From positions 390,001 to 422,000 of the forward strand of contig NC_017459.1 in assembly GCF_000237865.1 (NCBI RefSeq): 32,000 bases of DNA, in the 5' to 3' direction. Position 1 is the first letter of the stretch. Each line of letters begins with the position of its first letter. The stretch comes from Haloquadratum walsbyi C23. GTDB taxonomy: Archaea > Halobacteriota > Halobacteria > Halobacteriales > Haloferacaceae. The translations under genes were made by a program, and so were the position numbers. The notes under the pieces are model-generated. The model had not been told where the DNA came from, did not search any database, and saw only the letters and a list, made by a program, of their open reading frames with translations. Positions 7,581-27,981 of the stretch are shown here, in pieces.

Positions 7581-7582
7581 CA

Positions 7583-13075: not shown

Positions 13076-13077
13076 TC

Positions 13078-13350: not shown

Positions 13351-13465
13351 ATTAGACTACTTCAACCCTTATTAAATGACTGTACAGCCACAGTCAACGT
13401 AATAGGGGTATGATTTTGACTCCTGAGAAAGCTTTTTGAGTATTATACCCGTATTTTAACCCCCT
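13351..13465 (+). promoter_or_regulatory. CRISPR leader
   Basis: 115-nt AT-rich non-coding stretch between the cas2 stop and the first repeat. AAAGCTTTTTGAGTATTATA lies about 20-35 nt upstream of repeat 1 and is TATA-like. The degenerate repeat is at the opposite end of the array, so this is the leader-proximal side. Confidence 0.55.
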
Positions 13466-15074
13466 GTTGCAACGAAGAGAAAACCCGCTAAGGGATTGAA
13501 ACCCTTCTAATTTGGTGCACCGTTGAGACAGTGACATCGTTGCAACGAAGAGAAAACCCGCTAAGGGATTGAAACAAACCGAGTGACTGCCAGGCGTCTC
13601 CTGCCTGCCGGTTGCAACGAAGAGAAAACCCGCTAAGGGATTGAAACGGGATTGAAGTAGCTCCCGGAATTCTCCCGCTTTAATGTTGCAACGAAGAGAA
13701 AACCCGCTAAGGGATTGAAACAAGCCGAATCGCTGGGTCAATTGAACATACTACGGTGGGTTGCAACGAAGAGAAAACCCGCTAAGGGATTGAAACGCTA
13801 TCATCATCGTCACCGCCACCACCGAATGATGGCGTTGCAACGAAGAGAAAACCCGCTAAGGGATTGAAACGCGGCTCCGTCTTCACGACTAAAACAGCAG
13901 AAGATCGTTGCAACGAAGAGAAAACCCGCTAAGGGATTGAAACGTTTATCTTCCTCAGGTTCGAGTTCAAACCCAATTTGTTGCAACGAAGAGAAAACCC
14001 GCTAAGGGATTGAAACATTCCTCAGTTTTCGAGATTGGTTGGTGCTAGCCATGTTGCAACGAAGAGAAAACCCGCTAAGGGATTGAAACAATTCTCTCAG
14101 ACTGTACTGTCGTTGTGAAGCGTCGTTGCAACGAAGAGAAAACCCGCTAAGGGATTGAAACCACGTTTGGTTGTCGGGCTGGCACGGTCAACCGCGTTGC
14201 AACGAAGAGAAAACCCGCTAAGGGATTGAAACCAGTCCCAAGTAGCGCAGCATCGTCCACCCAAGTAGGTTGCAACGAAGAGAAAACCCGCTAAGGGATT
14301 GAAACTATTTGTCACGGCATTGCCATCTGTATCAGTATCGGTATGTTGCAACGAAGAGAAAACCCGCTAAGGGATTGAAACTGATTATCATTCACACACC
14401 ATGACACATTCTGCTGCTGTTGCAACGAAGAGAAAACCCGCTAAGGGATTGAAACTAACTCTCCAAAGTGTACAAATTGCGGTTCTCATGGTTGCAACGA
14501 AGAGAAAACCCGCTAAGGGATTGAAACGCAGCCCCCGTCTTCACGACAATAAATCTGGTATAAAGTTGCAACGAAGAGAAAACCCGCTAAGGGATTGAAA
14601 CGAAAATGCAAGTACAGGAGTTGGTAAAACAACTTGTGCTGTTGCAACGAAGAGAAAACCCGCTAAGGGATTGAAACAATAGACAACAGTTTAAAGGAAT
14701 AGACAGTCTTTTAGGTTGCAACGAAGAGAAAACCCGCTAAGGGATTGAAACAATTGGATGTATGAGCAGTCTGTGAAAAATGGGTTCGTTGCAACGAAGA
14801 GAAAACCCGCTAAGGGATTGAAACTGCACGGAACTCTCGAATATCGATAAGATTACCTGTGTTGCAACGAAGAGAAAACCCGCTAAGGGATTGAAACATG
14901 ACTCCGACAGAGGACCCAGTGAATACTGTTGTTGCAACGAAGAGAAAACCCGCTAAGGGATTGAAACACATGGGCAACTGGCGTAGGGTTGACTGCCGTA
15001 GAGGGTTGCAACGAAGAGAAAACCCGCTAAGGGATTGAAACAACACGGGATGATGTTCGAAAGCTACGCCGAAT

Positions 15075-15222
15075 GTTGCAACGAAGAGAAAACCCGCTAA
15101 GGGATTGAAACCTGATGTTTTGGTCACTGCTCAGAAAAACACGGCAGCGTTGCAACGAAGAGAAAACCCGCTAAGGGATTGAAACCTGATGTTTTGGTCA
15201 CTGCTCAGAAAAACACGGCAGC
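15075..15222 (+). repeat. tandem duplication of one repeat-spacer unit (2 x 74 nt)
   Basis: Spacers 23 (15112-15148) and 24 (15186-15222) are identical: CTGATGTTTTGGTCACTGCTCAGAAAAACACGGCAGC. Confidence 0.95.
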
Positions 15223-15950
15223 GTTGCAACGAAGAGAAAACCCGCTAAGGGATTGAAACTTTCAAAGCCGACGGCGAACAGCACTGCCGGCAAGTGTTGC
15301 AACGAAGAGAAAACCCGCTAAGGGATTGAAACCTCTCAGCCTCAACGGCATTCTTTGCAGCCTTAATCGTTGCAACGAAGAGAAAACCCGCTAAGGGATT
15401 GAAACTATTTGCATGAGCTAACCCACGTTATCGCTGTTTAGTTGCAACGAAGAGAAAACCCGCTAAGGGATTGAAACTCCCCGTGGTCAAATCCGCTGTC
15501 TTAACTGTATTATGTTGCAACGAAGAGAAAACCCGCTAAGGGATTGAAACAGCACGGCTAACGACGTGGTGGATCTAAGTAAGCCGTTGCAACGAAGAGA
15601 AAACCCGCTAAGGGATTGAAACTGGTTGACCGGTGAACTGGGAACACCGGGAACACAGACGTTGCAACGAAGAGAAAACCCGCTAAGGGATTGAAACATT
15701 GCTATCATTGGCTATGTGCTGCTGCAACGTGTTGTTGCAACGAAGAGAAAACCCGCTAAGGGATTGAAACCGCCGAGGAGGCAGTCGCTGCCGTGCTGTC
15801 TGTTCGGTTGCAACGAAGAGAAAACCCGCTAAGGGATTGAAACACTCCGCGAGGATAGTAATTCAAAATTGGTGAAAAGTTGCAACGAAGAGAAAACCCG
15901 CTAAGGGATTGAAACGATGATCAGCCAGTTCAACATGATGATCCAGGTCG

Positions 15951-16096
15951 GTTGCAACGAAGAGAAAACCCGCTAAGGGATTGAAACGATGAGTCGTGAG
16001 CGTAGATCGTCTGTGGTTGATTGGTTGCAACGAAGAGAAAACCCGCTAAGGGATTGAAACGATGAGTCGTGAGCGTAGATCGTCTGTGGTTGATTG
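15951..16096 (+). repeat. tandem duplication of one repeat-spacer unit (2 x 73 nt)
   Basis: Spacers 35 (15988-16023) and 36 (16061-16096) are identical: GATGAGTCGTGAGCGTAGATCGTCTGTGGTTGATTG. Confidence 0.95.
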
Positions 16097-16895
16097 GTTG
16101 CAACGAAGAGAAAACCCGCTAAGGGATTGAAACACCACTTTCCTCGTGGATTCTAACACGTTGAGTTCGTTGCAACGAAGAGAAAACCCGCTAAGGGATT
16201 GAAACCCGGCGGCTTCGTCCAAGACAATCACGGAGGGTTGGTGTTGCAACGAAGAGAAAACCCGCTAAGGGATTGAAACACCAATAGGTTAGTTCTCGCC
16301 AGTGTTCATCATGTGTTGCAACGAAGAGAAAACCCGCTAAGGGATTGAAACACCATCTAGATCAAGACAGAAACCGGTCTGCCTCAGTGTTGCAATGAAG
16401 AGAAAACCCGCTAAGGGATTGAAACCCGATCCACCGAAATTCGTGAAGTGACTACCTGGTTGCAACGAAGAGAAAACCCGCTAAGGGATTGAAACGATAC
16501 GAGTTTTCTAACTTGGTTCGGACGGTCTGTTGCAACGAAGAGAAAACCCGCTAAGGGATTGAAACAGAGTCCCCGAGTCCGTCGAGATCCGGGAGTCCAA
16601 GTTGCAACGAAGAGAAAACCCACTAACCAATAAACCCTGCCGTAATCGTCAAACTCGCAATCATGAGGGCACAACTGAGCAGCCCTACTGAATTCTCAGG
16701 ATTTTCGAGTCATATTCTCACATTATTGATCTCAGTTTAATCGTCAGTAACAACACCTTCACACGAGCTATCCTTACCATCTTTGTCTTCCTGAGCTCAG
16801 AGTTTTCTCATGTTCACGGTCGAAGTTCTCCTGAATGACTGCCTTTCTCCTCAAACTCATGCTTATCTGAAGAGATGTTGGCGTTGATAACACCT

Positions 16896-16918: not shown

Positions 16919-18009
16919 TATAATCCAAATTGGTATATTTGCTCTCTATAGATTGTCTCAATATCCTCATAATATGTATGAATATATTCGTCCATTACAT
17001 CAAGATTCTCTAGTTTTGAACCACCGGGCGTATCACCGCGCATATATTTAACCAACTCTCGGCTCAAATCCTGTTCTACCCCCCAGTAAGTTGTAAATCG
17101 ATGACGACCATAGTGACTTGTTACTGCCCGGAATCTTTCAGTCTCAGCGTATTCTGGATGAAAATAATTTTTCCATATCTTATTAATGTCACTGTATTTA
17201 AGTTTTTGACGCCCAATTTTCGATAGGAACAGCCATGGCTCATTAATATCAGGGCGAATCAAAATATATCTCAAGAGTACTTCACGCAATTCATAATCCA
17301 ATGGAAGAACGCGGGGCTTTCGAGACTTATTTCGCTCTCTGTCGTGAGGAATATAAATAGCGTTTCTACGATCATCTAACGCTTTAGCGGTCCCCATTTT
17401 AGTATAATGATCTTCAATAACAGTATTAGAGAGATGAATTTCTGAGATTTTAATGTTGCATACCTCGCTTGCACGAAGCCCAAGTTTGAGTTGTATCAAG
17501 ACAAAAGCTTGATCTCGAATATTCGTGATTTCTTGTAATTTCTTTGATAGCTCATTCACAGTTAATCGTTGTAGCTTCTTTTGCGGTTCACCGCTGAGGT
17601 CAGCGGTTTTTTTTGCTAGATCAATTGGATTGTAGTCACGTGAGTGAGGGAATGCTGCATCATCCTGCCAATATTTGTACGCTTGATTAAGATACATCAG
17701 CCGATTTTTGATCGTCCCTGCCGCATTGCCACGCTCTTCCTGCAAGTAATCAATGAACCGACTCACATGGGTTTTATTTGGACATGCAAAATGGCGCTTC
17801 TCGTTGTACATGAATTCTTGCCATTGCTGAAATGAGCGACGGTACTCCTCGTCCGTTCCCTTCGCTAAGTCTTTTTTCGACAGTCGTTCATCTATATACA
17901 ACTCAAATGGATTTATTTCGATCGAATCAAATTTCTGGGTATACTTTGCAAGTGGATCCAAATCGCGATTGAACGCATCTGCAATTGTTTGCCGATCAGA
18001 ATCACGCAT
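16918..18009 (-). CDS. tyrosine recombinase / phage-type integrase
   Basis: Catalytic-domain motifs are LKLGLRASEVCNIKISEI (Arg I), TSHYGRHRFTTYWG (H-x-x-R) and a C-terminal Tyr region (DEYIHTYY). The N-terminal core-binding-like region is HVSRFIDYLQEERGNAAGTIKNRLMYLNQAYKYW...YNPIDLA. The track ORF extends to 18048. ATG 18009 (MRDSDRQ) overlaps the upstream ORF's stop as ATGCGTGA and is preferred. Confidence 0.85.
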   Translation of the reverse strand: MRDSDRQTIADAFNRDLDPLAKYTQKFDSIEINPFELYIDERLSKKDLAKGTDEEYRRSFQQWQEFMYNEKRHFACPNKTHVSRFIDYLQEERGNAAGTIKNRLMYLNQAYKYWQDDAAFPHSRDYNPIDLAKKTADLSGEPQKKLQRLTVNELSKKLQEITNIRDQAFVLIQLKLGLRASEVCNIKISEIHLSNTVIEDHYTKMGTAKALDDRRNAIYIPHDRERNKSRKPRVLPLDYELREVLLRYILIRPDINEPWLFLSKIGRQKLKYSDINKIWKNYFHPEYAETERFRAVTSHYGRHRFTTYWGVEQDLSRELVKYMRGDTPGGSKLENLDVMDEYIHTYYEDIETIYREQIYQFGL

Positions 18010-18451
18010 TATTTCTCTCCTGTTTTTGAATCCAGACTTCGTGGGCACTACTGCCGGCTACGGAGGCAGCCATGTGGAATGGATTATATGTATGAGGGTG
18101 ATTGACATGCCATTTAAGCCATTCATATAACCCCTCAATTACATACCAGTGCTGATATGTACGATCACGAGAAAACCGGGATAATAATTTTCCTGACCAT
18201 ACTTCAACATCAGTTGGTTGAGCTAATATACAATGTCGACCCTGTTCAGACATATGCTTCCTCCATCGACGTAAAAATAATTCCCAGTCTTCGCTCATCC
18301 GATCTGAAAGCTCAGTAGTCGCTCGGTATGACTCCCAAGTCGATGTATTTTGATACCGTCCCTCGAACTGGCATAATCGGCGGGCGGTTGGGACATCCGA
18401 GAGCTGTTTAAATATACCAAGCCGATTTTGTGGCGGTCGGAACTTTTCCAT
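18002..18451 (-). CDS. stand-alone integrase core-binding (SAM-like) domain-like protein
   Basis: 149 aa. AQPTDVEVWSGKLLSRFSRDRTYQHWYVIEGLYEWLKWHVNHPHTYNPF resembles the N-terminal core-binding domain of tyrosine recombinases, but no catalytic domain follows. It is translationally coupled (8-nt overlap) to the integrase. Confidence 0.5.
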   Translation of the reverse strand: MEKFRPPQNRLGIFKQLSDVPTARRLCQFEGRYQNTSTWESYRATTELSDRMSEDWELFLRRWRKHMSEQGRHCILAQPTDVEVWSGKLLSRFSRDRTYQHWYVIEGLYEWLKWHVNHPHTYNPFHMAASVAGSSAHEVWIQKQERNNA

Positions 18452-19304
18452 CAGATATTCCTCTCATTAATCATACATTGTAATACGGTGAGACTATCTA
18501 CAGCTTTCTGTGTAGTATTCTCCATAATACAACCGTTCTTGCCGCCTTTTGCTACTAATACTCTCACAATAGAATACTGACATATTAACTGTATATCAAC
18601 ATAGCAAGTTAGACACACAGGTTATTGTGGACTTCGAGATAGCTATAATTGACAATTAACCGATATTTGTGGACGATGAGTACATGATAATCAGAAGAAG
18701 CGTTACATATTGAGATGCAGGCTTTCAGATCCGAACATTTTCGCTCAAACCAGATGGGTTGATAAAACGATTAGTTCATGCATGCTCTAGCACATCTAAG
18801 TAACATGAGTCGTAGCGAAGGTAAAATCATTGTCGCATCATAGAATGCCCAACAATATTCATCACTAGGTCTTATATTGTCGGATTTAATTGGCTGGGAA
18901 CCTCAGAGGATAATTAAAAGAGATAATATATTAATAAACTACCTACATGCTATCTAGATGAATATGAGTGCCGAGGCCAGCTTTCTATCTACACACCTGC
19001 GAGAAGAAGTGTACGGACATGGGAGAATCGTGTCTGCTACCCGCTGAGAGAGGGCGGTCGTAATCTAAAGGCGAATAGAGCACACTCCGAGACTTCCAGG
19101 AGCGATTGCCCCCGGTCTCTACACTATCTGCTTAATCCAAGTCATGATTCACCGGGATACATAACTACCGGCACTCTTCCAAGACATATGAGAGCGCTCG
19201 TACTCGCAGAGAGCTCAGGAACAGTCAATAGTGATGCTGAAACGGCTGTTGATTACTATCAGGGAAATTTTCTTCCAGTTTCACAATTGATTGATGGAAT
19301 AAAG

Positions 19305-20244
19305 GGCTGTGTTGAATCGCCATACAGCGGTGGAATTCACTGTTTCACGGCTCGCTTGATGTTATAGACCACACACATCAGCGCGATTTCTCGGAACTCA
19401 CGGAACCAAGTACGCGCTCGCACGGCGAAGCCGAGCGAGCGCTTGACAGCCGAGTTCACTGTCTCGGTCATTGAGCGCTGATTGTAGCGTTGTTCGTCGA
19501 TTCTGGCGTTATGAGCGTGGTCGTACGGAGCGAAGATACGATGTTTGATGAGCGGGCGAATCCCGAGGTCACGAAGAGATTCGCGGAGCGATTGCTTGTC
19601 GTATCCCTTGTCGGCGGCGAGCGACCGCAGATCGCCCGCGTTTCGGCGGGCGATCTGCTCGGCAAGGTCTGCGTCACTTCCCTTCCGGTTCGTCGAACAG
19701 TGTACGTCGAGGACGGCCTGCGACGCTGTATCGACGAGTTTCGTGACCTTCAATTTCTGCACGCGGTAGCTGATTCGCTGGCAGTAGTGGCGGCTCGCAG
19801 CTGAGCGTTCGTAGAAGGTAGCGTCGATCGCACCGTGTTCGGAGGGGTCGTGCAGCTGCGCCGACTGGCGCAGCAGCACTCGACAGACGCTCATGCTGAT
19901 CCGGTCGAACGCCTTACACAACGTGGATGGTGAGGGGAGATCGGCCGCTTCAAGGCCGATCTCCCCGGTTATTTGTGGCATCTCCTTCAGCAGGTCAATC
20001 GTCATCCGGTAGGACGTGTCGAGGTAAATTCGGAGACAATGGAGGGAAACGAGCGCGTAGTCGGCGAATCCGCCGCCACCTTCCGGGGCGGCGGATTCGT
20101 CTCCGTCGCCAGTAACCCTTTGAGAAATCGGGACAATCTCGCTAGTGAAGCGGGAGATTTGCGTCATGGACATTCGCAGTCTCCCGCTTCAACTCCTTTG
20201 ATTTAACGACCCATCCCGACGCCGCCTAGCGATTCAACACAGCC
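19305..20244 (-). mobile_element. 940-bp insertion sequence (IS4/IS5-superfamily DDE type) with 16-bp terminal inverted repeats and 8-bp target-site duplication
   Basis: Left end GGCTGTGTTGAATCGC (19305-19320) is the exact reverse complement of right end GCGATTCAACACAGCC (20229-20244). It is flanked by direct repeats GAATAAAG (19297-19304 and 20245-20252). It has one transposase ORF and clearly higher GC than the flanking DNA. Confidence 0.9.
19337..20173 (-). CDS. DDE transposase (IS5/IS4-like)
   Basis: 278 aa. Candidate DDE residues lie in GAIDATFYE, LAADKGYD and YNQRSMTETVNSAVKRSLG (the Y-x-x-R-x-x-x-E-x-x-x-x-x-x-K pattern of IS4/IS5 enzymes). It fills the IS between the inverted repeats. 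Confidence 0.85.
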   Translation of the reverse strand: MSMTQISRFTSEIVPISQRVTGDGDESAAPEGGGGFADYALVSLHCLRIYLDTSYRMTIDLLKEMPQITGEIGLEAADLPSPSTLCKAFDRISMSVCRVLLRQSAQLHDPSEHGAIDATFYERSAASRHYCQRISYRVQKLKVTKLVDTASQAVLDVHCSTNRKGSDADLAEQIARRNAGDLRSLAADKGYDKQSLRESLRDLGIRPLIKHRIFAPYDHAHNARIDEQRYNQRSMTETVNSAVKRSLGFAVRARTWFREFREIALMCVVYNIKRAVKQ

Positions 20245-20715
20245 GAATAAAGCCATACGGTGATGTTGAGACTCGTATAATCACAGATTCCAACAGCTTA
20301 ATCTCGGGGTCATCGAATGTGTCCGAGGAACCAGAACAATCCAATGAGGATGCTCTGGAAGCCGCTACTTCTCTCCTCATTGAATCTGGTTCCGATTTTC
20401 ACGCTGTCGTCATTTTACTTACTACCGATGTGTTTCGAGAGGTTGTAGCTGAAGATTGGGACAACATAATCGAGGAGGTAAATGAGGATGCAATCTGGTG
20501 TCTCGGAACCAGTAGATCTGGTATTTCCAGCTGTGATATCGATAACCTGCAAGAGAACATTCGAGAGCTATTCATTTACGAACGTGTTGGCGTCGCTCCC
20601 ATTGATAGTGATACACGCGAGTCGTTGTTAGCCTCCGTCGAATCTCACGACAAGGAACTACAATAGTACCTTTCCGAACCCCTATAATAGATGACGGGCG
20701 ATTGTTGCATATGAC

Positions 20716-22512
20716 TTGGACCGACGTGATATCATGAATTCTAACCCTGAGATTTCGCCGTTGAACGAGGAAATCATGTCAGATAATGGAAAGGGATCCC
20801 TCTTTTACCGGGTACACCCTTACCCCACTAAGGTTCCTCCATCTATTCTAAAACAACTGATCGAGCACTACACTGATCCTGGTGATTTGGTACTTGATCC
20901 GTTCTGCGGTAGCGGCGCAACAGGATACGCTGCAAAGCTCTCCGGGCGGGACTTTTCAATCTCAGATCTTAGTCCCTACGCAGTCCATATTGCTCGAGGA
21001 TACACTGAATCTTGCTCGACAGATGAGATCGACGATGCATTAGAGACCGTTTTCACTATCCTCAAAGAGACCCGAGATACCTACAAAACGGCTTGTCGAT
21101 CCTGCCAACGGCAAGTGGAAGGTCGATATTGGGTCTGGTCGTGGGAATTTGAGTGCCCAACATGCGAAAATACTTGGACGCTAGATCCTGATGAAGGGCA
21201 GTCGGGCCGAGGTAAAGTAACATGTCCAGACTGCGACACAGAACACTCACAGAGCGACGTACATTCTGGTCAAGATGTTCCGATTCGAGTTGCGTATAAA
21301 TGCTCGGAGTGCAACAGCAAGGCCGTCGAAAAGCAGGTATCTCCAGCAGAACAGGATCGACTTGTCGCACTGGAAGACTCCGACGTTGGATCGAGTCGCT
21401 ACGACCGACCGATGATGCACGTCGAAGATGGCACTGAGTGGGGTGACCAGTACCGTGACGGCAATCACGAGTACGTAAACTCGGTGTCTTCGTTCTTCAC
21501 TGGTCGAAATTGGGAGATATTGGTCGAACTCTGGGAAACACTAGAGTCAGTGGAAAATAATCTGGTGCGAAATGCCCTCGAATTTGCCTTTACTGCGTCT
21601 CTTTACACCTCCTCAAAAATGGTTCGCTGCCGGCCTAAACGAGATGGCCGAAGTAATAATCCAGGAACGCTATATCTCCCACCCTTAGCCCTCGAACAGA
21701 ATGTCTTCAGGGTTTTCGAAAGACGGGTTAAGAAAGTACGGAAGCTCAAGATTAAACTGTCAGGTGCAGAAGCCCAACAAATGCTGACCTCTGATGGAAT
21801 CGCCGCACGTGGGGAAGGGACCATTGGGGTTCGAGATGCGCGAGATCTCGAGGACCTGAAAGACGATTCAGTAGATTACGTGGTCACTGATCCCCCGTTC
21901 GGTGATAGTCTTCAGTACGCAGAATTGAATTTCATCCCAGAGTCGTTTATTGGCACTTTCACTGAGGCAGAGAACGAAATCGTCGTCAACGATACCCGAT
22001 CAGTTTCTGAGACGGAATATCTTGATCGGATGGGGGACGCATTTGAAGAGGCGTATCGCGTCCTCAAGTTGGGGGGGTATATATCTATTATCTTTAATAA
22101 TACCTCGCCACTCGTTTGGGCAGGGATGAAACGACGTCTCCTCAAATCTGGGTTCGAACTTCCAGCAGTAACAGGAATTGTCAAGGGACACGCAAGTAAG
22201 AACCAGACCGTGTATGCAGGATCAACGAGCCGGTTCGACCCTGTATTCCACGCACGTAAACCGAGAGACTTAGAGTCCGTATCCGAGATTATCGAATATT
22301 CAGAGGAAGAGAGTGAGGAACTCGCCATTGATGTCGCATCAGGGGTTATCGAAGAGGATTCTCACAAAGAGTTCGCGGATTCAATCGCGTATATCCACAG
22401 TCAGGTGACTCAACGTCTTCTGGAGATGGATGCAATCGTTCATCCTCCCTCTCCAAAAACACTCAAGCGTCTCTTAGAAGACGCGGGTCAAGCTGATTTC
22501 GTCGAGGCCTGA
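20716..22512 (+). CDS. DNA methyltransferase (N6-adenine or N4-cytosine), motif order X/I - Zn-ribbon insert - IV
   Basis: HPYPTKVPPSILKQLIEHYTDPGDLVLDPFCGSGATG (AdoMet motif I, residues 61-70) lies near the N-terminus. Four CxxC motifs follow (CRSC, CPTC, CPDC, CSEC; 21094-21312). Catalytic DYVVTDPPFGDS is at residues 392-395, then LKLGGYISIIFNN. The likely ATG start is 20734 (MNSNPE); the track starts at TTG 20716. Confidence 0.85.
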   Translation: MDRRDIMNSNPEISPLNEEIMSDNGKGSLFYRVHPYPTKVPPSILKQLIEHYTDPGDLVLDPFCGSGATGYAAKLSGRDFSISDLSPYAVHIARGYTESCSTDEIDDALETVFTILKETRDTYKTACRSCQRQVEGRYWVWSWEFECPTCENTWTLDPDEGQSGRGKVTCPDCDTEHSQSDVHSGQDVPIRVAYKCSECNSKAVEKQVSPAEQDRLVALEDSDVGSSRYDRPMMHVEDGTEWGDQYRDGNHEYVNSVSSFFTGRNWEILVELWETLESVENNLVRNALEFAFTASLYTSSKMVRCRPKRDGRSNNPGTLYLPPLALEQNVFRVFERRVKKVRKLKIKLSGAEAQQMLTSDGIAARGEGTIGVRDARDLEDLKDDSVDYVVTDPPFGDSLQYAELNFIPESFIGTFTEAENEIVVNDTRSVSETEYLDRMGDAFEEAYRVLKLGGYISIIFNNTSPLVWAGMKRRLLKSGFELPAVTGIVKGHASKNQTVYAGSTSRFDPVFHARKPRDLESVSEIIEYSEEESEELAIDVASGVIEEDSHKEFADSIAYIHSQVTQRLLEMDAIVHPPSPKTLKRLLEDAGQADFVEA

Positions 22513-22515
22513 AAC

Positions 22516-24147
22516 ATGTGTGAGAAAGAATCGCCTACACTTGAGGATGAGCTATCTGTGGAACGAGCGGGGACTAATTCGACTGTTTCGCGCCAAGAAG
22601 ACGTTTCAAAACGCAAGGCGACGGGCGCGTTCTACACGCCTCCAGAACTGGCAAACTTCGTCGTTGACCGGGGACTGAGCCTTCGAAACACGTCTGAGCG
22701 GCTCTCTGCTCTTGATCCTTCTGTCGGTGGTGGGGTGTTCTTAGACAGTATTGCCCAGCGGTTTCAAAATGAACCAGAAATCTCTCTTGAGCTGGTCGGT
22801 GTTGATATCGAAGAGCGTGCGCTTGCTGCCACCGAAGATGTTCTAGCAGCATACGACCAGTCGACGATGACGGTCAACCTAGCTCATGACGACTTCTTCC
22901 GCTGGCGTTGGTCGGCGATGGACGCTGATTTCGACCTCATCGTCGGGAACCCACCGTGGGGACTGACAAGTTCCGAGGCGAACGGGTCACCGATTTACCG
23001 GGAGTTGTCCCTGGATTTCGTCCATCATAGTCTCCAACTGCTGGGCGATAACGGATGTCTAAGCCTCCTCCTTCCGGGAACATGGGTATTCTCACGCTCA
23101 GATACAGAATTCCGCGATTTTCTCCTTGGCCTGAATCGGTCTATTGAGATATATCAAATCAGTCCGGACTGGTTCCCTGATGCAACTTTTACAGTTGAAC
23201 CGGTTGTCTTGATCGTGGGGTCGAAAGCGGGCGAACAGGATCCACAGCTATCAATCTATGACGCGACAAGCATCCCGATAAACAGTAACCAACTCTATCA
23301 GTTGCCGTTAGACCGCTTCCACGACTATCCCGCACAGAAGTTCCCGATCGCCCCAGCATCTTTTCATAGATTCATTAATGGGTCTGAACTGTCGAACATA
23401 GTCACTACCCCACCCGGACTCGGGTATCAGCCGTATAGCGGTGTTAAAACATATGCGAACAAGACGTATGTCTACGACGCCGTGAGCGCCATGGAAAATA
23501 AAAATAATGATGATATCGAGATTCGGATGTCGCTTGACGACAGCGAAAAGCAAAATGGCGTTGAGTCTGATTGTCCTGTTCTTATACCATATGATAAAGG
23601 CGGGCGAACCAGAGATAAAGATTGGACGGCATTCTGGACTCCCACTCGACACTACCTTCGATGGGACGCTGAGGCAGTTACATACTACCGCTCGAAAGGC
23701 GGTCTCAGAAATGAAGAGACGTATTTCACTGACGGGATTCACTTCTCATCGAGTGGCCGAAACTGCCCAGTGTTTCGGCTCTCAACCGGACTAGTCTACG
23801 ACGCCGACTTCCCGTTCGTCCCAGTCGAGGGTCGTGAGCAGTGGGATCTCCTGTCCCTGCTCAACAGTCCACCGTGCATGTATTTGATCAAGCACTGTAT
23901 CAATCCAACTGTTCATTTCAAAAACCAGGACTTCGAAGACGTTCCGCTCCCGGAGTTCAAGCAGATGGATACTGATGTGCTAGTTAACACAGGTCGCCAA
24001 ATCACGAAGGTCCGAAAAGGAGAGGGACGAGTTCCAGTCGACATGTATCGGAAGCTATCGAAGGAAAGCGCGGAGTTGTACGGATTAAGTGACGACGAGG
24101 AGGAGACGGTGTGGAAGTGGTTTGAGCGAGCTCGGCTTCAGTCCTGA
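22516..24147 (+). CDS. gamma-class N6-adenine DNA methyltransferase (Eco57I/TaqI-like) with C-terminal target-recognition domain
   Basis: GAFYTPPELANFVV, LDPSVGGGVFL (motif I) and DLIVGNPPWG (motif IV, NPPW) appear in gamma order, followed by a C-terminal region of about 350 aa. It starts 3 nt after the upstream methyltransferase stop. Confidence 0.85.
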   Translation: MCEKESPTLEDELSVERAGTNSTVSRQEDVSKRKATGAFYTPPELANFVVDRGLSLRNTSERLSALDPSVGGGVFLDSIAQRFQNEPEISLELVGVDIEERALAATEDVLAAYDQSTMTVNLAHDDFFRWRWSAMDADFDLIVGNPPWGLTSSEANGSPIYRELSLDFVHHSLQLLGDNGCLSLLLPGTWVFSRSDTEFRDFLLGLNRSIEIYQISPDWFPDATFTVEPVVLIVGSKAGEQDPQLSIYDATSIPINSNQLYQLPLDRFHDYPAQKFPIAPASFHRFINGSELSNIVTTPPGLGYQPYSGVKTYANKTYVYDAVSAMENKNNDDIEIRMSLDDSEKQNGVESDCPVLIPYDKGGRTRDKDWTAFWTPTRHYLRWDAEAVTYYRSKGGLRNEETYFTDGIHFSSSGRNCPVFRLSTGLVYDADFPFVPVEGREQWDLLSLLNSPPCMYLIKHCINPTVHFKNQDFEDVPLPEFKQMDTDVLVNTGRQITKVRKGEGRVPVDMYRKLSKESAELYGLSDDEEETVWKWFERARLQS

Positions 24148-24148
24148 A

Positions 24149-25936
24149 TTATCTCGACTCCAGATCCTCGACCAAAGTGAACGGATCGAGATAGACCCTC
24201 CATCCGCACTCTACAAGTCGTTCTAGGTTGTCACGGTGACTCCAATCACCGTCCACCCACATCCACCATTCGTCGTCGGAATATTCTGGCTCAATCTGAC
24301 CGTTTTGGACGGGGAGGTTGAGTTTACCGAACCAGCCCTTCCCTCCTTCTTCTCTGGCTCGTCGACCTTCTTCATTCTTCGTCGGTTTCGACTTGATGTA
24401 CACCGAACTGTCGTCATCCTCGAAGCTGAACTCCGCCCGTGCAAACGTCGGGCGCCACATATCCTCAGCCTCACGGAACGTAATGAGGCGGTCGACGAAC
24501 TCATCATATGGTACGTCTTTGATAAAGGAGTACCATCGGCCGCCTGTGCCTATCCGATCGCCGAACTGGAGCGACGATTCTTCGATCAGATGACTCAGTG
24601 CCCAATTAGTTGGTGTGCTATTTGTCCCATTATATGCTTGATAATTAACGGAACTCCCGATCAGTTGTCGACCCGTTCTCACCCACTCGGAACTTGATTT
24701 CCCGCTAGCGTTCGATGTGATTTGATCGACAATCTGCTCGAGGATACGTCGAGTGACAGGGTCGTCAAATCGTTCACGAGAGAAGTTCTGTTCAGTAACA
24801 CTCGTCTCTTCATAGAAATCGTCGACTGGACGTTGATACAGCGAACGTAGTGCGTTTCGGTAGGCGATACGTTGGGTCTCATCCGGGTGGTTCCAGTACT
24901 CCGCCAAGCCATCGATATCACCGGACTCACAAAGGTCGCGTATCTGTGGCAATATCGATTCGGCGTTATCCACAATGTCGCGTCCCGCTTCGACTTCGGG
25001 TATCTCCTCTGCAGCCTTGTCGAGAACGGCACGGAGAAGGGGCTGACCCTCTTCGGCGAACTGATCAAGTTCTGCGTCTCCATCCCCGATTTTCTTCCAG
25101 GCCGCTTTCAGTCCAAATCTATCCGCAGGGGTCCCTCCCGAGGTAATCTGATCATCCAGAAAGGCCATATTCAATTTGTGCTCATCGGTACCTCGGTAAT
25201 CATGTCGAGCACGGTGTTCTGTTAGACCTAATGGAGACAAAGGGAAGCCATTCTGTTTGAACTGTTCGAATCGGTCGAGTAATCGTCCTCCGACGAGGTC
25301 TATGATTTCATTGTCCGATTTGTTTTCGAGACGGTCTTTAAGCCAAGTTACGAACTCAACAGGGTCGTCAAAGGGTGCGTACGCTTCAAGAAGTGCCTGT
25401 TTGATTCCAGTGTCGGGATCAGTCGGTTCAGAATCTAAGTATTCGTACGAGGGGTACGAGACGAAGTCTAGAAAAAGCTCGTATTGCGTTGGAATCCATT
25501 TCCTGACGTATCGTCGATTACCGAATATTACGTCACCGAACGCTGTATCCTGTGGAAGTCCTTCAACGGTCGAATCAGGGGCTCTTGTTCGTGAACCGAG
25601 GAACGAGAATTCTTCCAGTGTTTCGATTGCTTTGTACGACTTATTCGGTTCCTCAGACACGTTCTTCTCGTCTTTCCAGTGGGTAACTTCTAAGACTAAC
25701 GCGCGGTCGGCGGTCTGTGATCCGTCAGCGACTTTGAATATTCCGAGGTCGAAAACATCGGGAACATCAGCGTCGGAATATTGCGGTGTGTACTGGTGAA
25801 CGATCCTCCAATCTTCAGACTTTGGAAAGGTCAGCTCTGCACAAGCCTTCGTTAGAGCTTCAAAAAGATCGCCAGCATGGACAGAGTCTCCACGGGCGCC
25901 ATGGAAGCCGCTACCACTTATGACGCTATCACTCAT
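24149..25936 (-). CDS. 595-aa acidic protein of unknown function (candidate nuclease/effector of the methyltransferase module)
   Basis: Long ORF with haloarchaeal acidic composition. Its start overlaps the upstream 255-aa ORF by 8 nt, and its stop codon lies 1 nt from the methyltransferase-2 stop. I recognised no Walker A, HNH, GIY-YIG or PLD motif. There is a weak PD-(D/E)xK-like pattern, VPDVFDLGIF...LVLEVTHWK, near the N-terminus. Confidence 0.75.
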   Translation of the reverse strand: MSDSVISGSGFHGARGDSVHAGDLFEALTKACAELTFPKSEDWRIVHQYTPQYSDADVPDVFDLGIFKVADGSQTADRALVLEVTHWKDEKNVSEEPNKSYKAIETLEEFSFLGSRTRAPDSTVEGLPQDTAFGDVIFGNRRYVRKWIPTQYELFLDFVSYPSYEYLDSEPTDPDTGIKQALLEAYAPFDDPVEFVTWLKDRLENKSDNEIIDLVGGRLLDRFEQFKQNGFPLSPLGLTEHRARHDYRGTDEHKLNMAFLDDQITSGGTPADRFGLKAAWKKIGDGDAELDQFAEEGQPLLRAVLDKAAEEIPEVEAGRDIVDNAESILPQIRDLCESGDIDGLAEYWNHPDETQRIAYRNALRSLYQRPVDDFYEETSVTEQNFSRERFDDPVTRRILEQIVDQITSNASGKSSSEWVRTGRQLIGSSVNYQAYNGTNSTPTNWALSHLIEESSLQFGDRIGTGGRWYSFIKDVPYDEFVDRLITFREAEDMWRPTFARAEFSFEDDDSSVYIKSKPTKNEEGRRAREEGGKGWFGKLNLPVQNGQIEPEYSDDEWWMWVDGDWSHRDNLERLVECGWRVYLDPFTLVEDLESR

Positions 25937-26696
25937 GTGTTTCGTCTCTAAGTAGATGGTTTCCTATTCGGTCCATATTGTTACGAAATTCATATTTATT
26001 TTCGGCCTTCAAAACTGTTGTTCCTGTTGGTAGCTCTCCACTAGCGCAAGGGTTAGAATGTTCAAGTATGGCGGCAGTATTATTGCTTCTTAGTTCACTC
26101 AGAAGATCTACCTGTTCTCTTAGACGCTCACATGATTTGTTTAATGACACTTCCATACCGAGGGTTGGGAAAATCGGTTCCCCCTGGTCTTCTGCGGCGA
26201 TCGGACCATTAGAGTTGGTTTCGGTCTTATACCGCCTCTCACCTGAACTGCTTCCACTCCAAGATACGATTACATGCTCTCCTACGAATGGATCCGAATG
26301 TTGCTCAATCTCGAAAGTCCCCGAATAGACAAGTAAATCTGGCCGGTCTCGCGATCGTAAGAACGGACTTCCTTCTCTAAAAAAAGACAGTGACTGTTGA
26401 TCTCGCTTGACTTCAAAAATTGGCGAAACCCAAGATAGGAGATCCGAGATATCCGCTTGCTGGTTTATTCCCGAGCCTTGGGTTACACGACGGTATGGTA
26501 TATGATTCGTGTGCGAAAGATCTAGCTGTTCGTCAACCGGAACAAAGTCATTTTTTAGGCAAAATTGAATTAATTTTGCTATGGTGATTGACTCAAAGCG
26601 TTTCGGTCTTCCAGGTGGTTCGTTTATAATTTCTACCCCTTCTTCGGTTAATGATAGAGAAAGCTCACTCAGTGCTTGTTTACTCCAATGATCCAT
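25929..26696 (-). CDS. 255-aa protein of unknown function (candidate small subunit or nuclease)
   Basis: First gene of the minus-strand pair, with coding-like composition. A possible PD-(D/E)xK signature is ADISDLLSWVSPIFEVKRD (D85...E95-V-K97; 26406-26444), followed by RPDLLVY. Confidence 0.7.
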   Translation of the reverse strand: MDHWSKQALSELSLSLTEEGVEIINEPPGRPKRFESITIAKLIQFCLKNDFVPVDEQLDLSHTNHIPYRRVTQGSGINQQADISDLLSWVSPIFEVKRDQQSLSFFREGSPFLRSRDRPDLLVYSGTFEIEQHSDPFVGEHVIVSWSGSSSGERRYKTETNSNGPIAAEDQGEPIFPTLGMEVSLNKSCERLREQVDLLSELRSNNTAAILEHSNPCASGELPTGTTVLKAENKYEFRNNMDRIGNHLLRDETHE

Positions 26697-26834
26697 ATCA
26701 CGGGGATTGTATCCCCATAAGTTGAGTATTTCTCAAGAGTGCTGTGAGCCATCCATAGAAGATGTTTTGTCGAGTCGGTAATTAGAAACGATCAAGCTTG
26801 AACACTGTGAGACGCTGATTCAGTAAAATCTCCA

Positions 26835-27383
26835 ATGGTTAAAGTCGTTAATATCGTAACGTCTGGGTCTCTCGGCACTGAACTAGATCTAGAGAATGTA
26901 TATCGCGATGTTGGAGCAATTGGTGAGTACGATCCCAACAAATATCCAGCAGTGTATTTCAGATTCAAAGAAGACGCTCCTTTGGTTACTCTCTATAGAA
27001 CTGGGAAGTACATCGTAACCGGAGCAGATTCAAAGGAAGAGGCGTATTCGATACGCGACCGCTTCCTCGGTCTGCTTGCAGAGCAGGGGATGATTGCAGA
27101 GCAGGATGACGAGTGGTTTCGAATTCAGAACCTCGTCTGTACGGCAGAACTGGGGGAGTCGTTGAATCTCAATGCACTCGCAATCGGTCTTGGTCTCGAA
27201 ATGACTGAATACGAGCCTGAGCAGTTCCCTGGGTTGACTTATCGACCAACCGGTACCGATAGTGTCGTTCTCCTCTTCGCCTCTGGCCGTGTCGTGATTA
27301 CGGGCAGCCCTGACCTCGATACAGCAGAGGAGACGTTCGCCGCGTTACAAGAAGAAGTGACAGACCTCCTTGCCATCGACTAA
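26835..27383 (+). CDS. tbp: TATA-box binding protein paralogue
   Basis: 182 aa with the two TBP direct-repeat halves. First half: VNIVTSGSLGTELDLENV...YPAVYFRF...LVTLYRTGKYIVTGADS. Second half: IQNLVCTAELGESLNLNALAIGL...EYEPEQFPGLTYRP...VLLFASGRVVITGSPD. Confidence 0.92.
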   Translation: MVKVVNIVTSGSLGTELDLENVYRDVGAIGEYDPNKYPAVYFRFKEDAPLVTLYRTGKYIVTGADSKEEAYSIRDRFLGLLAEQGMIAEQDDEWFRIQNLVCTAELGESLNLNALAIGLGLEMTEYEPEQFPGLTYRPTGTDSVVLLFASGRVVITGSPDLDTAEETFAALQEEVTDLLAID

Positions 27384-27589
27384 GGCACAGACCGAGAGAC
27401 TCCGAGGAGACGCGGTTTTGTGGCGAGGGGCTGAGGGATACACCGGATTCCATCTCAACTCGCAGAGCCTCGCATCTCTTGACCAGAAGATGACCTAGTC
27501 AGAGAACCGGTTTCGCTCTGTAAACGCGAAACTCCGGAATGCTCTAATCCAAAATCCCGGAATAGCGGGGTAAGACGTTTGACGCGTCA

Positions 27590-27981
27590 TCAATCCTGCT
27601 CTAAGTTGTGAGTTGGCAGGTCGATCAGCACATCTGGGTCACAGTCGAACGGACTCGGGAGTTCGTCAACGAACGCTCGCACGAATCCCGTGGTTCCTGG
27701 TTTGATCATATTACCTCTGCATCGGCGTGAGCCGTCTCACCATCCTCGTTCTCGTAGGTCGTGGGGACGAGCACGGGGATACCCTCCTCGAGATACTCCT
27801 GCGAGACGTTTCTGAGCGTCTCGCTCTCCGTGTCGAGGTTCCTGTCCGTATCTATCGTCCCGACGACTCCGCCTCGTTCATGATTCAGTATCTCGACCTC
27901 TACGACCTCGTGCGACGTCTCTGTCGTGACCTCGACGTCCTCACCGAGATTTATCGCAGGTTCATCGTTGAGGCTATTAAA
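27590..27981 (-). pseudogene. GC-rich relic: 5'-truncated acidic ORF ATGA-coupled to a 39-aa ORF
   Basis: The minus-strand frame 27981..27706 reads FNSLNDEPAINLGEDVEVTTETSHEVVEVEILNHERGGVVGTIDTDRNLDTESETLRNVSQEYLEEGIPVLVPTTYENEDGETAHADAEVI with no start codon. Its stop overlaps the ATG (27709) of MIKPGTTGFVRAFVDELPSPFDCDPDVLIDLPTHNLEQD. GC content drops abruptly near 27975. Confidence 0.35.

What the first reader, a model, noticed from the sequence alone, without database searches (positions are those of the whole stretch)
19188..26696. Unclassified methyltransferase-linked module beside CRISPR-Cas: two dissimilar MTases converging on a two-gene operon of unknown proteins
Five co-located genes lie between the IS and the TBP gene, with no cas, transposase or housekeeping signature. 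(a) A 176-aa acidic ORF, now split by the IS. (b) A 598-aa MTase with motif I at the N-terminus, four CxxC motifs and DPPF. (c) A 543-aa gamma-class NPPW MTase that starts 3 nt after (b). (d, e) On the other strand, a 255-aa and a 595-aa protein that overlap by 8 nt. I recognised no named family in d or e, and no P-loop, HNH, GIY-YIG or PLD motif. Two different MTases plus a two-protein partner recalls Type IIS/IIT R-M systems for asymmetric sites, such as two MTases with a heterodimeric nuclease in BbvCI- or BtsI-type systems. The partner proteins here look unrelated to anything I can name. The placement next to a CRISPR-Cas locus, an integrase and an IS is the classic defence-island context.
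Basis: partly seen in the sequence, partly recalled or inferred. Interest (0 to 1): 0.8.

Follow-up and report, generated by a model that had tools for sequence, protein, structure and literature searches.

The report
Two-subunit restriction enzyme with two methylases
This stretch of the Haloquadratum walsbyi C23 chromosome most likely encodes a restriction-modification defence system. Two DNA methylases probably protect the host, and a cutting enzyme made of two previously unnamed proteins probably attacks foreign DNA. That protein pair turns out to be conserved from archaea to bacteria.

Summary

The window is H. walsbyi C23. Proteins d (255 aa) and e (595 aa) are annotated "hypothetical".

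They match nothing in Pfam, NCBIfam, PADLOC, PHROGs or PDB sequences. Even so, d, e and the two MTases form a four-gene block in all the archaeal loci sharing only 35-50% identity whose contigs reach far enough.

Distant d/e pairs in cyanobacteria, Firmicutes, Proteobacteria and a Psychrobacter plasmid sit beside different modification genes:
- an N6A MTase plus a C5 MTase;
- a fused double MTase;
- in one subgroup, two TGT/DpdA-like enzymes with 7-deazaguanine genes.

The e model gives weak matches, and its best ones are mostly PD-(D/E)XK nucleases. Protein d carries an invariant E...RPD...ExSxxK...Q signature, but its confident model matches no solved fold.

The best reading is a Type IIT-like restriction-modification system. 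It would have a large recognition/nicking subunit, a small second-strand subunit, and one MTase per strand of an asymmetric site. This resembles BsrDI/BtsI in layout, but their catalytic motifs are not met.

Gene "a" is not part of the conserved core. Nuclease activity is inferred, not shown.

Interest is moderate: a new restriction-enzyme family of a known kind.

The parts
20716..22512 (+). b: DNA methyltransferase 1. It is a circularly permuted N6_N4 (beta-like) amino-MTase. Motif I (FCGSG) is at residue 63, a Zn-ribbon region with 4 CxxC lies in the middle, and DPPF is at 392. The probable real start is ATG 20734 (593 aa).
   Evidence: Pfam N6_N4_Mtase 4e-22 in two stretches, with the N-terminus matching the end of the profile. 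PADLOC MTase_II PDLC03312 1e-72 and PglXI 3e-69. Motif positions. Homologues are 47-50% identical in all archaeal loci. The start is inferred from L026/L027.
22516..24147 (+). c: DNA methyltransferase 2. It is a gamma-class N6-adenine MTase (NPPW at 145) of the Eco57I/TaqI/BseCI kind.
   Evidence: Pfam N6_Mtase 1e-11 and Eco57I 4e-10. PDB M.BseCI 3e-7 and M.TaqI 3e-4. It is CCC39339.1 'N-6 DNA methylase' of H. walsbyi C23.
24149..25936 (-). e: putative large REase subunit (595 aa, 68 kDa).
- The N-terminal alpha-beta-beta-beta-alpha-beta domain carries E26, P59-D60/D63, E83-x-T85 and E96-P-N98-K99.
- The middle (about 170-460) is a variable helical region and a candidate recognition domain.
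- The conserved C-terminal alpha/beta domain carries K515, E522, R525-R526, E529-E530 and D562.
   Evidence: AF2 model with pLDDT 78.6 and pTM 0.74. Most of the leading Foldseek PDB matches are PD-(D/E)XK nucleases, but all are weak (best E 0.02). Invariant residues. Conservation profile. No match in any family library. It is CCC39340.1 'hypothetical protein'.
25929..26696 (-). d: putative small REase subunit (255 aa, 29 kDa). Its invariant signature is E35 ... R118-P119-D120 ... E182-x-S184-x-x-K187 ... Q195. Its stop overlaps the start of e by 8 nt.
   Evidence: AF2 model with pLDDT 90.6 and pTM 0.89. No significant fold match in PDB or BFVD. Invariant columns across 26 family members from archaea and bacteria. 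hhalign of the archaeal group against the distant group gives 98.2% probability, E 3.5e-14. It is CCC39341.1 'hypothetical protein'.
19188..19304 (+). a, N-terminal part (39 codons) of a 176-aa acidic ORF cut by the IS. It is an accessory gene of the haloarchaeal element, not of the conserved module.
   Evidence: Reconstruction. 92% identity to intact copies in L026/L027. Absent from the more distant loci. No family match.
19305..20244 (-). IS5/ISH9-type insertion sequence (278-aa DDE transposase at 19337-20173). It is flanked by the 8-bp target duplication GAATAAAG.
   Evidence: It is absent at this position in L026/L027.
20253..20666 (+). a, C-terminal part (137 codons plus stop).
26835..27383 (+). 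TBP paralogue. It travels with the module in the close relatives and belongs to the same transferred block (window 18963 to about 27900).
   Evidence: Pfam TBP 1e-40. The block is about 86% identical in nucleotides to Halosegnis rubeus and a metagenome contig.

Best explanation
The core is a four-gene, ATP-independent restriction-modification system of the Type IIT kind, meaning an asymmetric site and two different catalytic subunits.

Proposed mechanism:
- b and c are both amino-MTases (DPPF and NPPW). Each methylates one strand of an asymmetric recognition sequence and so protects the host.
- d and e are co-translated from an overlapping two-gene operon and form a heteromeric endonuclease.
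- e would be the large subunit. It carries an N-terminal PD-(D/E)XK-like site (D60/D63, E83, E96, K99), a variable helical middle that probably reads the sequence, and a conserved C-terminal domain that probably docks d.
- d would be the small subunit and supplies the second catalytic site (E35, D120, E182, K187, Q195) for the other strand.
- Unmethylated incoming DNA is cut.

What is shown:
- the gene anatomy;
- the MTase identities;
- the conservation of the d/e pair and its linkage to modification genes of varying type;
- the purifying selection;
- the invariant charged residues.

What is inferred:
- nuclease activity;
- heterodimer formation;
- which subunit reads DNA;
- one strand per subunit;
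- an asymmetric target.

The module sits on a horizontally transferred block next to an integrase and CRISPR-Cas. Gene 'a', upstream of the MTases, is disrupted by an IS. Whether the system is still expressed in C23 is unknown.
For: (1) Conserved four-gene block at 35-50% protein identity. All four genes are present in L001/2, L004, L005/6 and L007. Three are visible on the short contigs L008 and L009.

(2) The pair persists in distant relatives with about 17-25% identity:
- The e-profile finds 44 clusters in 1.84 billion proteins.
- d-like genes flank e-like genes in L010, L011, L014, L018-L025 and L029.
- L019's truncated neighbour was not used in the model and still scores 2e-13.

(3) The partner modification genes change while the d/e pair stays:
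- b-like plus c-like (L011, L024);
- a fused b+c protein of 1302 aa (L010);
- an Eco57I/N6_Mtase-type MTase plus a b-like MTase (L022; no TaqI_C domain was detected there);
- an Eco57I/TaqI_C N6A MTase plus a C5 MTase (L014, L018, L020, L021, L023, and the Psychrobacter plasmid L025);
- two TGT/DpdA-like proteins with DpdC-like DUF6884 and preQ0 genes (L015/16, L029, L030).

A nuclease module that swaps protective modifications is the behaviour of a restriction component.

(4) Two MTases, separate or fused, plus unequal subunits is the published Type IIT pattern (PMC4081073 section 35; BsrDI at 56+25 kDa with N6A and N4C MTases, PMC1950550).

(5) Most of the best Foldseek matches of the e model are PD-(D/E)XK nucleases: Can2, McrC, the R2 endonuclease domain, Card1, LmuA, Bax1, AF1548 and N.BspD6I. 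Its N-terminal secondary structure is alpha-beta-beta-beta-alpha-beta, with conserved D at the start of strand 2 and E in strand 3.

(6) d has an invariant E / RPD / ExSxxK / Q set. The RPD lies at the start of a long strand and the E lies in a later strand followed by a helix.

(7) There is no Walker A motif, helicase or other NTPase in the module.

(8) dN/dS is 0.07-0.15 for b, c, d and e.

(9) The neighbours in other loci are defence genes: HEPN/AbiV, TIR, GmrSD, and a DISARM-like DrmE.
Against: - No statistically significant fold or sequence match supports a nuclease. The best Foldseek E for e is 0.02 with TM 0.24 or less.
- d has none at all despite a confident model. Its best E is 0.2 against PDB and 0.05 against BFVD.
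- The canonical ExK lysine is replaced in both proteins (T85 in e, S184 in d).
- In the distant subfamily the strand-3 acid of e is Q.
- In d the PD and E are 61 residues apart. That is longer than the 4-51 range quoted for known enzymes.
- One d homologue (P0028) has N instead of D120.
- One close relative (L026) has two tandem d/e pairs but only one MTase pair. A simple one-REase, two-MTase model does not predict this.
- No methylome or cleavage data exist for C23 in the searched literature.
- REBASE could not be queried.
Confidence: 0.62

Rival explanations
1. d and e are not nucleases. They would be accessory proteins of a methylation-based system without cleavage. Examples are target-recognition or regulatory partners of the MTases, or effectors of a BREX-like exclusion mechanism.
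For: - b scores 3e-69 against PADLOC PglXI, and c matches PglX models at 3e-12 and the NCBIfam BREX-1 PglX at 2e-16.
- d has no fold match, and e has only weak ones.
- The catalytic lysines of the canonical motif are missing.
Against: - No PglZ, BrxC/PglY, BrxL, helicase or ATPase is present in the window or in any related locus next to the pair.
- The pair also occurs with C5 MTases and with TGT/DpdA enzymes. Those would not share a specific MTase-binding partner.
- Both MTases have their own large recognition regions.
- The invariant residues are acidic/basic clusters typical of metal-dependent phosphodiesterases.
Confidence: 0.15
2. The system is a decaying relic in strain C23. The IS insertion upstream of the MTase genes, or other lesions, has silenced it. 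The genes are then present but no longer act as a defence system in this genome.
For: - The IS5-type element splits gene 'a', 67 nt upstream of the probable b start and in the same orientation.
- The region is a mobile-element-rich divergent segment, DV3 of the C23 genome paper (PMC3119063).
Against: - b, c, d and e are all full-length and collinear with their homologues in Halosegnis rubeus. Lengths are 593, 543, 595 and 255 aa, with no frameshifts.
- dN/dS is 0.07-0.15.
- 'a' is not part of the conserved module, so its loss need not matter.
- Silencing the MTases alone would be lethal if d/e were active, so an intact set argues for either full function or very recent silencing.
Confidence: 0.12
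3. d/e is a modification-dependent (Type IV-like) nuclease or a toxin that merely shares defence islands with MTases. The MTases would then be an independent or orphan pair.
For: Defence genes cluster in islands. The neighbours in other loci include GmrSD, HEPN and TIR genes.
Against: - The adjacency is immediate, often with overlapping or abutting stops and starts.
- It holds in 17 of 20 paired loci across two domains of life, whatever else surrounds them.
- A Type IV enzyme next to MTases that modify the host would be self-destructive unless their specificities differ.
- The number of modification enzymes is two, or one fusion of two, wherever the contig shows the whole neighbourhood. That fits strand-by-strand protection of one asymmetric site.
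Confidence: 0.06

Closest known systems
BsrDI and BtsI heterodimeric Type IIS/IIT restriction-modification systems (Xu et al. 2007, PMC1950550)
   Same: - Four genes: two MTases plus a large and a small REase subunit. BsrDI has N6A and N4C MTases.
- Similar subunit sizes: BsrDI 56+25 kDa, against 68+29 kDa here.
- The large subunit has an N-terminal non-canonical PD-(D/E)XK site, in which residues 13 positions after the strand-3 Glu lie on the next helix, followed by a recognition region.
- The small subunit provides the second site.
- No NTPase.
   Different: The catalytic motifs are not the same.
- BsrDI-B has PD-X13-17-E-X12-QR. Protein e has PD-X19-22-(E/Q)-x-T ... E-P-N-K.
- BsrDI-A has PD-Xn-ExK(xK). 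Protein d has RPD-X61-E-x-S-x-x-K ... Q.

The sequences of BsrDI/BtsI were not available, so homology could not be tested directly. Both d and e are larger. Activity here is untested.
R.BspD6I / BstNBI (604-aa nickase plus 186-aa small catalytic subunit; PDB 2EWF/6QNZ and 2P14)
   Same: A large sequence-reading nickase subunit of about 600 aa, plus a small non-specific subunit that cuts the second strand. It is of the Type IIT class (PMC4081073).
   Different: - Profiles of d and e find no BspD6I chain in the PDB at E up to 10.
- Foldseek gives only E 0.84 (6qnz_B) and 3.0 (2p14), with TM about 0.11-0.26.
- In BspD6I the catalytic domain is C-terminal. In e the candidate site is N-terminal.
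BbvCI / Bpu10I heterodimeric Type IIT REases
   Same: Two different subunits, each cutting one strand of an asymmetric site, with two MTases.
   Different: [quoted passage not shown] Here the subunits are very unequal and unrelated to each other (hhalign probability 0.1%).
BREX type 3 PglXI and DUF1156-type anti-phage MTases; MADS MAD2
   Same: MTase b is of the same permuted N6_N4 and Zn-ribbon kind: PADLOC PglXI 3e-69 and NCBIfam DUF1156_antiphage 1.6e-8. Both b and c weakly match MAD2.
   Different: None of the other defining BREX or MADS proteins is present. The scores are far below the NCBIfam cut-offs (33 against 1000 bits; 59 against 500 bits for PglX).
Dpd 7-deazaguanine restriction-modification system (dpdA-K)
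   Same: A subgroup of e-like proteins lies among TGT/DpdA-like, DpdC-like (DUF6884) and preQ0-synthesis genes. A d-like partner was detected only in L029.
   Different: This concerns relatives, not the window. Those loci lack MTases, and Pfam identified none of the dpdD-K-type domains (SNF2/DEAD helicase, PLD) among the genes it named near the e-like gene. Several neighbouring ORFs remain unassigned, and an HNH protein and a DUF87 ATPase lie further off in L015. The window's system uses methylation.

Membership tests
Type IIT restriction-modification systems (functional class, PMC4081073) | Two modification MTases (separate or fused), one per strand of an asymmetric site | tested here: met
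   b (N6_N4, DPPF) and c (gamma N6A, NPPW) are adjacent. Relatives carry two MTases or a fused b+c protein. The strand assignment itself is inferred.
Type IIT restriction-modification systems (functional class, PMC4081073) | REase with two different catalytic sites on two subunits or domains | tested here: inconclusive
   d and e are unrelated to each other. Each has one invariant acidic/basic cluster on a PD-(D/E)XK-like strand pattern. Fold matches are weak for e and absent for d.
Type IIT restriction-modification systems (functional class, PMC4081073) | No NTP-dependent motor (distinguishes it from Types I, III, ISP, BREX and DISARM) | tested here: met
   No Walker A motif in a-e. No helicase or ATPase domain by Pfam, NCBIfam or PADLOC.
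Type IIT restriction-modification systems (functional class, PMC4081073) | Cleavage within or next to an asymmetric recognition sequence | not testable with these tools
   This needs a methylome or in vitro cleavage mapping. None was found for C23.
BsrDI/BtsI/BsmI/BsrI/Mva1269I REase family | Large subunit or N-terminal domain with PD-X13-17-E-X12-QR | tested here: not met
   e has P59-D60/D63, then E83 (Q in distant members)-x-T85, then E96-P-N98-K99. The X12 spacing to the helix is kept, but QR is absent.
BsrDI/BtsI/BsmI/BsrI/Mva1269I REase family | Small subunit or C-terminal domain with canonical PD-Xn-ExK | tested here: not met
   d has R118-P119-D120-X61-E182-x-S184-x-x-K187, against D67...E82-x-K84 in BsrDI-A.
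BsrDI/BtsI/BsmI/BsrI/Mva1269I REase family | Detectable sequence homology to family members (GenBank DQ367879, DQ355163, AY079085, DQ074451) | not testable with these tools
PADLOC REase models gave no hit, but whether they cover this family is unknown.
BspD6I/BstNBI large and small subunits | Sequence or fold similarity to PDB 2EWF/6QNZ and 2P14 | tested here: not met
   No PDB sequence hit at E up to 10. Foldseek E 0.84 and 3.0 with TM at most 0.26.
PD-(D/E)XK nuclease superfamily (protein e) | alpha-beta-beta-beta-alpha-beta core with Asp at strand 2 and (D/E)xK at strand 3 | tested here: inconclusive
   The topology, D60/D63 and E83 fit. K is replaced by T85, with K99 on the next helix as a candidate. 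Most of the leading Foldseek hits are members of the superfamily, but with E at least 0.02.
PD-(D/E)XK nuclease superfamily (protein d) | alpha-beta-beta-beta-alpha-beta core with Asp at strand 2 and (D/E)xK at strand 3 | tested here: inconclusive
   E35 lies on helix 2 (residues 30-48). RPD lies at the start of strand 121-135. E182 lies in strand 177-184, followed by helix 189-201. A three-strand insertion sits between them. Neither PDB nor BFVD gave any significant match for this model; the best PDB hit had E 0.21.
BREX (type 3, PglXI) / DISARM / MADS | Presence of the other core genes (PglZ, BrxC/PglY, BrxL or helicases; DrmA/B; MAD1, MAD3-8) | tested here: not met
   Only the MTases match. 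No other component is present in window 19188-26696 or beside the pair in related loci. A DISARM-like set in L011 is a separate neighbour.
Alw26I/Eco31I/Esp3I Type IIS systems | MTase reaching TIGR02987, and an REase of the matching NCBIfam family | tested here: not met
   c scores 51.5 bits against a cut-off of 353.5. No NCBIfam family matches e or any of 41 e-family members.

The most novel reading that the evidence does not exclude
d/e may be a previously unrecognised, portable two-subunit restriction cassette found in both Archaea and Bacteria. Its small subunit would have a fold not represented among solved structures. The cassette has been coupled during evolution to at least four different kinds of DNA protection: m6A+m6A/m4C, m6A+m5C, a fused double MTase, and two DpdA-like transglycosylases inserting 7-deazaguanine. 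If so, the TGT-linked relatives would be a compact, Type II-like restriction partner for deazaguanine DNA modification, distinct from the helicase-rich dpdD-K machinery.
Probability: 0.3. Interest if true: 0.7.

Novelty: new variant of a known kind. Interest (0 to 1): 0.5.

Why it matters
If d+e is an active heteromeric endonuclease, it adds a new pair of protein families to the small set of natural two-subunit Type IIT enzymes. Those enzymes are the source of strand-specific nicking enzymes used in biotechnology.

It would also give names to genes now annotated as 'hypothetical' in haloarchaea, methanogens, cyanobacteria, Bacillaceae and Proteobacteria. Defence-system finders that currently see only two orphan MTases at such loci would be improved.

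For Haloquadratum, the most abundant organism of salt-saturated brines, it identifies a strain-specific, horizontally shared barrier to viruses and plasmids beside the CRISPR-Cas locus.

The linkage of relatives to 7-deazaguanine genes suggests that restriction modules can be re-coupled to chemically very different protective marks.

Tried and rejected
Searches for d and e that found nothing:
- Pfam, NCBIfam, PADLOC and PHROGs scans of d and e returned nothing. Family-wide scans of 41 e-like proteins (Pfam, NCBIfam, PADLOC) and 26 d-like proteins (Pfam) gave only scattered single-member hits.
- Profile searches of PDB sequences with A1, A3 and A4 found nothing relevant.
- Foldseek of the d model against PDB and BFVD gave no match below E 0.05.
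- hhalign of d against e shows them to be unrelated.

Collection scans:
- The genome-contig scan with the close e alignment found nothing. The species-representative genomes lack the island.
- Viral contigs (two scans) and phage records found no relatives.
- A plasmid megablast of the region and a tblastn of e found nothing. Only one plasmid, from Psychrobacter, carries a distant pair.

Ideas considered and dropped:
- Gene 'a' as part of the system. This was rejected because it has no homologue in the more distant loci and no family match.
- BREX, MADS or DISARM membership. This was rejected for lack of all non-MTase components.
- The Alw26I/Eco31I family. This was rejected on scores.
- The small ORFs flanking the e-like gene in L015 show no similarity to d.

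Literature:
- No methylome or functional study of these genes turned up.
- The C23 genome paper only notes 'restriction and modification enzymes' in region DV3.

Full report
**Source and observation**

The window is part of the Haloquadratum walsbyi C23 chromosome. Exact-sequence look-up returns CCC39339.1 (c, 'N-6 DNA methylase'), CCC39340.1 (e, 'hypothetical protein'), CCC39341.1 (d, 'hypothetical protein') and CCC39342.1 (TBP).

The listed motifs are present too:
- b has FCGSG at 63, four CxxC, and DPPF at 392.
- c has NPPW at 145.
- No protein has a Walker A motif.

The IS5/ISH9-type element spans 19305-20244. It has inverted ends and an 8-bp target duplication, GAATAAAG. Excising it restores a 176-aa acidic ORF 'a'.

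Close relatives in Halosegnis rubeus (L027) and in a metagenome contig (L026) carry the same block, corresponding to window 18963 to about 27900. The block holds a, b, c, e, d and TBP at about 86% nucleotide identity, without the IS and with 'a' intact. Those relatives also indicate that b starts at ATG 20734 (593 aa).

The surroundings are as described: cas6, csc2, cas3, cas4 and cas1, a CRISPR array at 13466-16566, and an integrase. [quoted passage not shown]

**Is the adjacency meaningful?**

Yes. Homologues of e are extremely rare. There are 11 clusters among 5.8 billion proteins, and 44 clusters at E below 1e-3 among 1.84 billion representatives with a profile. Homologues of d are just as rare, at 22 clusters.

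Whenever a contig reaches far enough, b, c, e and d occur together in the same convergent layout. This holds even though the proteins are only 35-50% identical to those in the window (L001/2, L004, L005/6, L007). L008 and L009 show three of the four on short contigs. Gene 'a' has no counterpart in these loci.

dN/dS between the window and L026/L027 is 0.07-0.15 for b, c, d and e, so all four are functional coding genes.

**The wider family**

The distant e-like proteins have about 17-25% identity and are 516-650 aa long. They come from:
- Nostoc
- Nodosilinea
- Oryzomonas
- Thalassobacillus
- Priestia
- a Lachnospiraceae MAG
- alphaproteobacterial and Oligoflexia MAGs
- a Methanoregulaceae MAG
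- a Psychrobacter plasmid

All are annotated 'hypothetical'.

Next to them lies a 243-286-aa protein that is homologous to d. hhalign of the archaeal group against the distant group gives 98.2% probability and E 3.5e-14. An HMM of the combined family also recognises a truncated neighbour in L019 that was not used to build it (2e-13).

The pair is adjacent in every orientation: d then e, e then d, or convergent.

What changes is the modification partner:

| Partner genes | Loci |
|---|---|
| b-like plus c-like | L011, L024 |
| One fused b+c protein of 1302 aa | L010 |
| An Eco57I-type MTase plus a b-like MTase | L022 |
| An Eco57I/TaqI_C N6A MTase plus a C5 MTase | L014, L018, L020, L021, L023, L025 |

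In a further subgroup there are no MTases at all (L015/16, L029, L030). Here the e-like gene is 622-636 aa, and a d-like neighbour was detected only in L029 (8e-20). Instead there are two TGT/DpdA-like proteins, DpdC-like DUF6884 proteins, JAB proteins and QueT. L015 also has FolE, QueD, QueC and QueE. Together these are the genes for 7-deazaguanine modification of DNA (DUF6884 = dpdC per PMC11888242).

A module that keeps its identity while swapping the protective modification behaves like the restriction half of a restriction-modification system. Wherever the contig shows the whole neighbourhood there are two modification enzymes, or one fusion of two. That points to an asymmetric target protected strand by strand.

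**What d and e look like**

Neither protein, nor any member of either family, matches Pfam, NCBIfam, PADLOC (which includes Type II REase models) or PHROGs. Profiles of both families find nothing in PDB sequences. The two families are unrelated to each other.

Protein e:
- The AF2 model has pLDDT 78.6 and pTM 0.74.
- It has an N-terminal alpha-beta-beta-beta-alpha-beta domain, a long helical middle and a C-terminal alpha/beta domain.
- Its best PDB matches are weak (E at least 0.02, TM at most 0.24).
- Most of the leading matches are PD-(D/E)XK nucleases: Can2, McrC, the R2 endonuclease domain, Card1, LmuA, Bax1, AF1548 and N.BspD6I.
- Residues conserved across the family sit where that fold's catalytic residues lie: E26 on helix 1, P59-D60/D63 at strand 2, E83-x-T85 in strand 3, and E96-P-N98-K99 at the start of the next helix.
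- The middle of e is its least conserved part, as expected for a recognition region.
- The C-terminal domain is well conserved and carries K515, E522, R525-R526, E529-E530 and D562.

Protein d:
- The AF2 model is confident, with pLDDT 90.6 and pTM 0.89.
- It has no significant match in PDB or BFVD.
- Ten residues are invariant across 26 members from both domains of life: E35, P67, P92, G109, R118, P119, E182, S184, K187 and Q195. D120 is nearly invariant.
- RPD sits at the start of a long strand. E182 sits in a later strand followed by a helix. A three-strand insertion lies between them.
- I read this as a PD-(D/E)XK-like site with a displaced lysine. That reading is an inference from sequence and secondary structure.

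**Comparison with known systems**

The published description of Type IIT enzymes fits closely. In enzymes such as BsrDI, BtsI and BspD6I the larger subunit recognises the sequence and cuts one strand. The smaller subunit lacks specificity and cuts the other. [quoted passage not shown]

BsrDI has subunits of 56 and 25 kDa with N6A and N4C MTases. Its large subunit has an N-terminal non-canonical site, PD-X13-17-E-X12-QR, followed by the recognition region (PMC1950550). Here the subunits are 68 and 29 kDa. Protein e keeps the same 12-residue spacing from the strand-3 Glu to conserved residues on the next helix.

The motifs themselves differ, however. Protein e has EPNK rather than QR, and d has ExSxxK rather than ExK. 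Membership of that family is therefore not supported. BspD6I, which is in the PDB, is not detectably related.

MTase b is of the PglXI/DUF1156 kind and c resembles PglX- and Alw26I-type MTases. None of the other BREX, MADS or DISARM components is present.

**Points that do not fit neatly**

- The canonical lysines are missing.
- The distant e subfamily has Q at the strand-3 position.
- One d homologue has N for D120.
- L026 carries a second, divergent d2/e2 pair (36% and 44% identity) between e1 and c, with only one MTase pair.
- The IS in 'a' lies just upstream of the MTase genes, so expression in C23 is uncertain.

**Verdict**

The most likely function is a Type IIT-like restriction-modification system whose two REase subunits belong to new, unannotated families. 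Confidence that d/e is the restriction component is about 0.6. Confidence in the detailed division of labour is lower.

The kind of system is known and the components are new, so it is filed as a new variant of a known kind. Interest is moderate, because REases are notoriously diverse. The cross-domain conservation of the pair, the unmatched fold of d, and the coupling of relatives to 7-deazaguanine modification raise it above routine.

Noticed in passing
L015 1702-12669 (same as L016/L028); L029 276-10219; L030 10-7336: A subgroup of e-like proteins (622-636 aa) lies among two TGT/DpdA-like genes, DpdC-like DUF6884 genes, JAB genes and QueT, with no DNA MTase. A d-like neighbour (249 aa, HMM E 8e-20) is present in L029. 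L015 also has FolE, QueD, QueC and QueE. This suggests a restriction partner for 7-deazaguanine DNA modification that differs from dpdD-K.
   Followed up: partly
L026 10001-18603: A close relative of the window's element has two tandem pairs: d1/e1 (88-91% identical to the window) and d2/e2 (36% and 44%). These are followed by a single c and b MTase pair. It is unclear how one MTase pair would protect against two divergent nuclease pairs.
   Followed up: partly
L010 3944-7852: A single 1302-aa protein fuses a b-like and a c-like MTase (phmmer 3e-96 and 2e-41), next to an e-like and a d-like gene on a 217-kb metagenome contig. This fusion links the two MTases functionally.
   Followed up: yes
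window 18963-27900; L027 (Halosegnis rubeus) 8807-16789: The whole block a-b-c-e-d-TBP is shared at about 86% nucleotide identity between two haloarchaeal genera, next to integrase genes. The TBP paralogue therefore travels with the mobile element rather than being a host housekeeping gene.
   Followed up: partly
window 19188-19304 and 20253-20666 (gene a): Gene 'a' differs from its neighbours. Against L026/L027 its synonymous divergence is much lower (dS 0.12-0.13, against 0.43-0.79 for b, c, d and e) and its dN/dS is higher (0.28-0.35). This suggests a more recent exchange or a different constraint. It matches no family.
   Followed up: partly
protein P0028 (d homologue, metagenome): This homologue has Asn in place of the otherwise conserved Asp120 of the RPD motif (RERPNLLVY). 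It may be an inactive variant or a sequencing error.
   Followed up: no
L011 9941-16974; L005 8651-10710; L004 295-2904; L001 3371-8416: In other genomes the four-gene module sits beside other defence genes:
- a DISARM-like set (DrmE_C, a helicase, and a C5 MTase fused to HhH-GPD);
- GmrSD plus RelA/SpoT;
- a TIR-domain protein;
- HEPN/AbiV genes.

This is typical of defence islands.
   Followed up: no
window 3649-16566: The CRISPR-Cas locus has Cas6, a 1017-aa large subunit without a Pfam match, a Csc2-type Cas7, Cas3, Cas4 and Cas1. Its array has the 37-nt repeat GTTGCAACGAAGAGAAAACCCGCTAAGGGATTGAAAC. A Csa3-like regulator lies at 2895-3602 on the opposite strand.
   Followed up: no
window 18002-18451 (-): A 149-aa ORF overlaps the start of the integrase gene by 47 nt. 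It has no match in Pfam or PHROGs and may be an excisionase-like partner or may be spurious.
   Followed up: no
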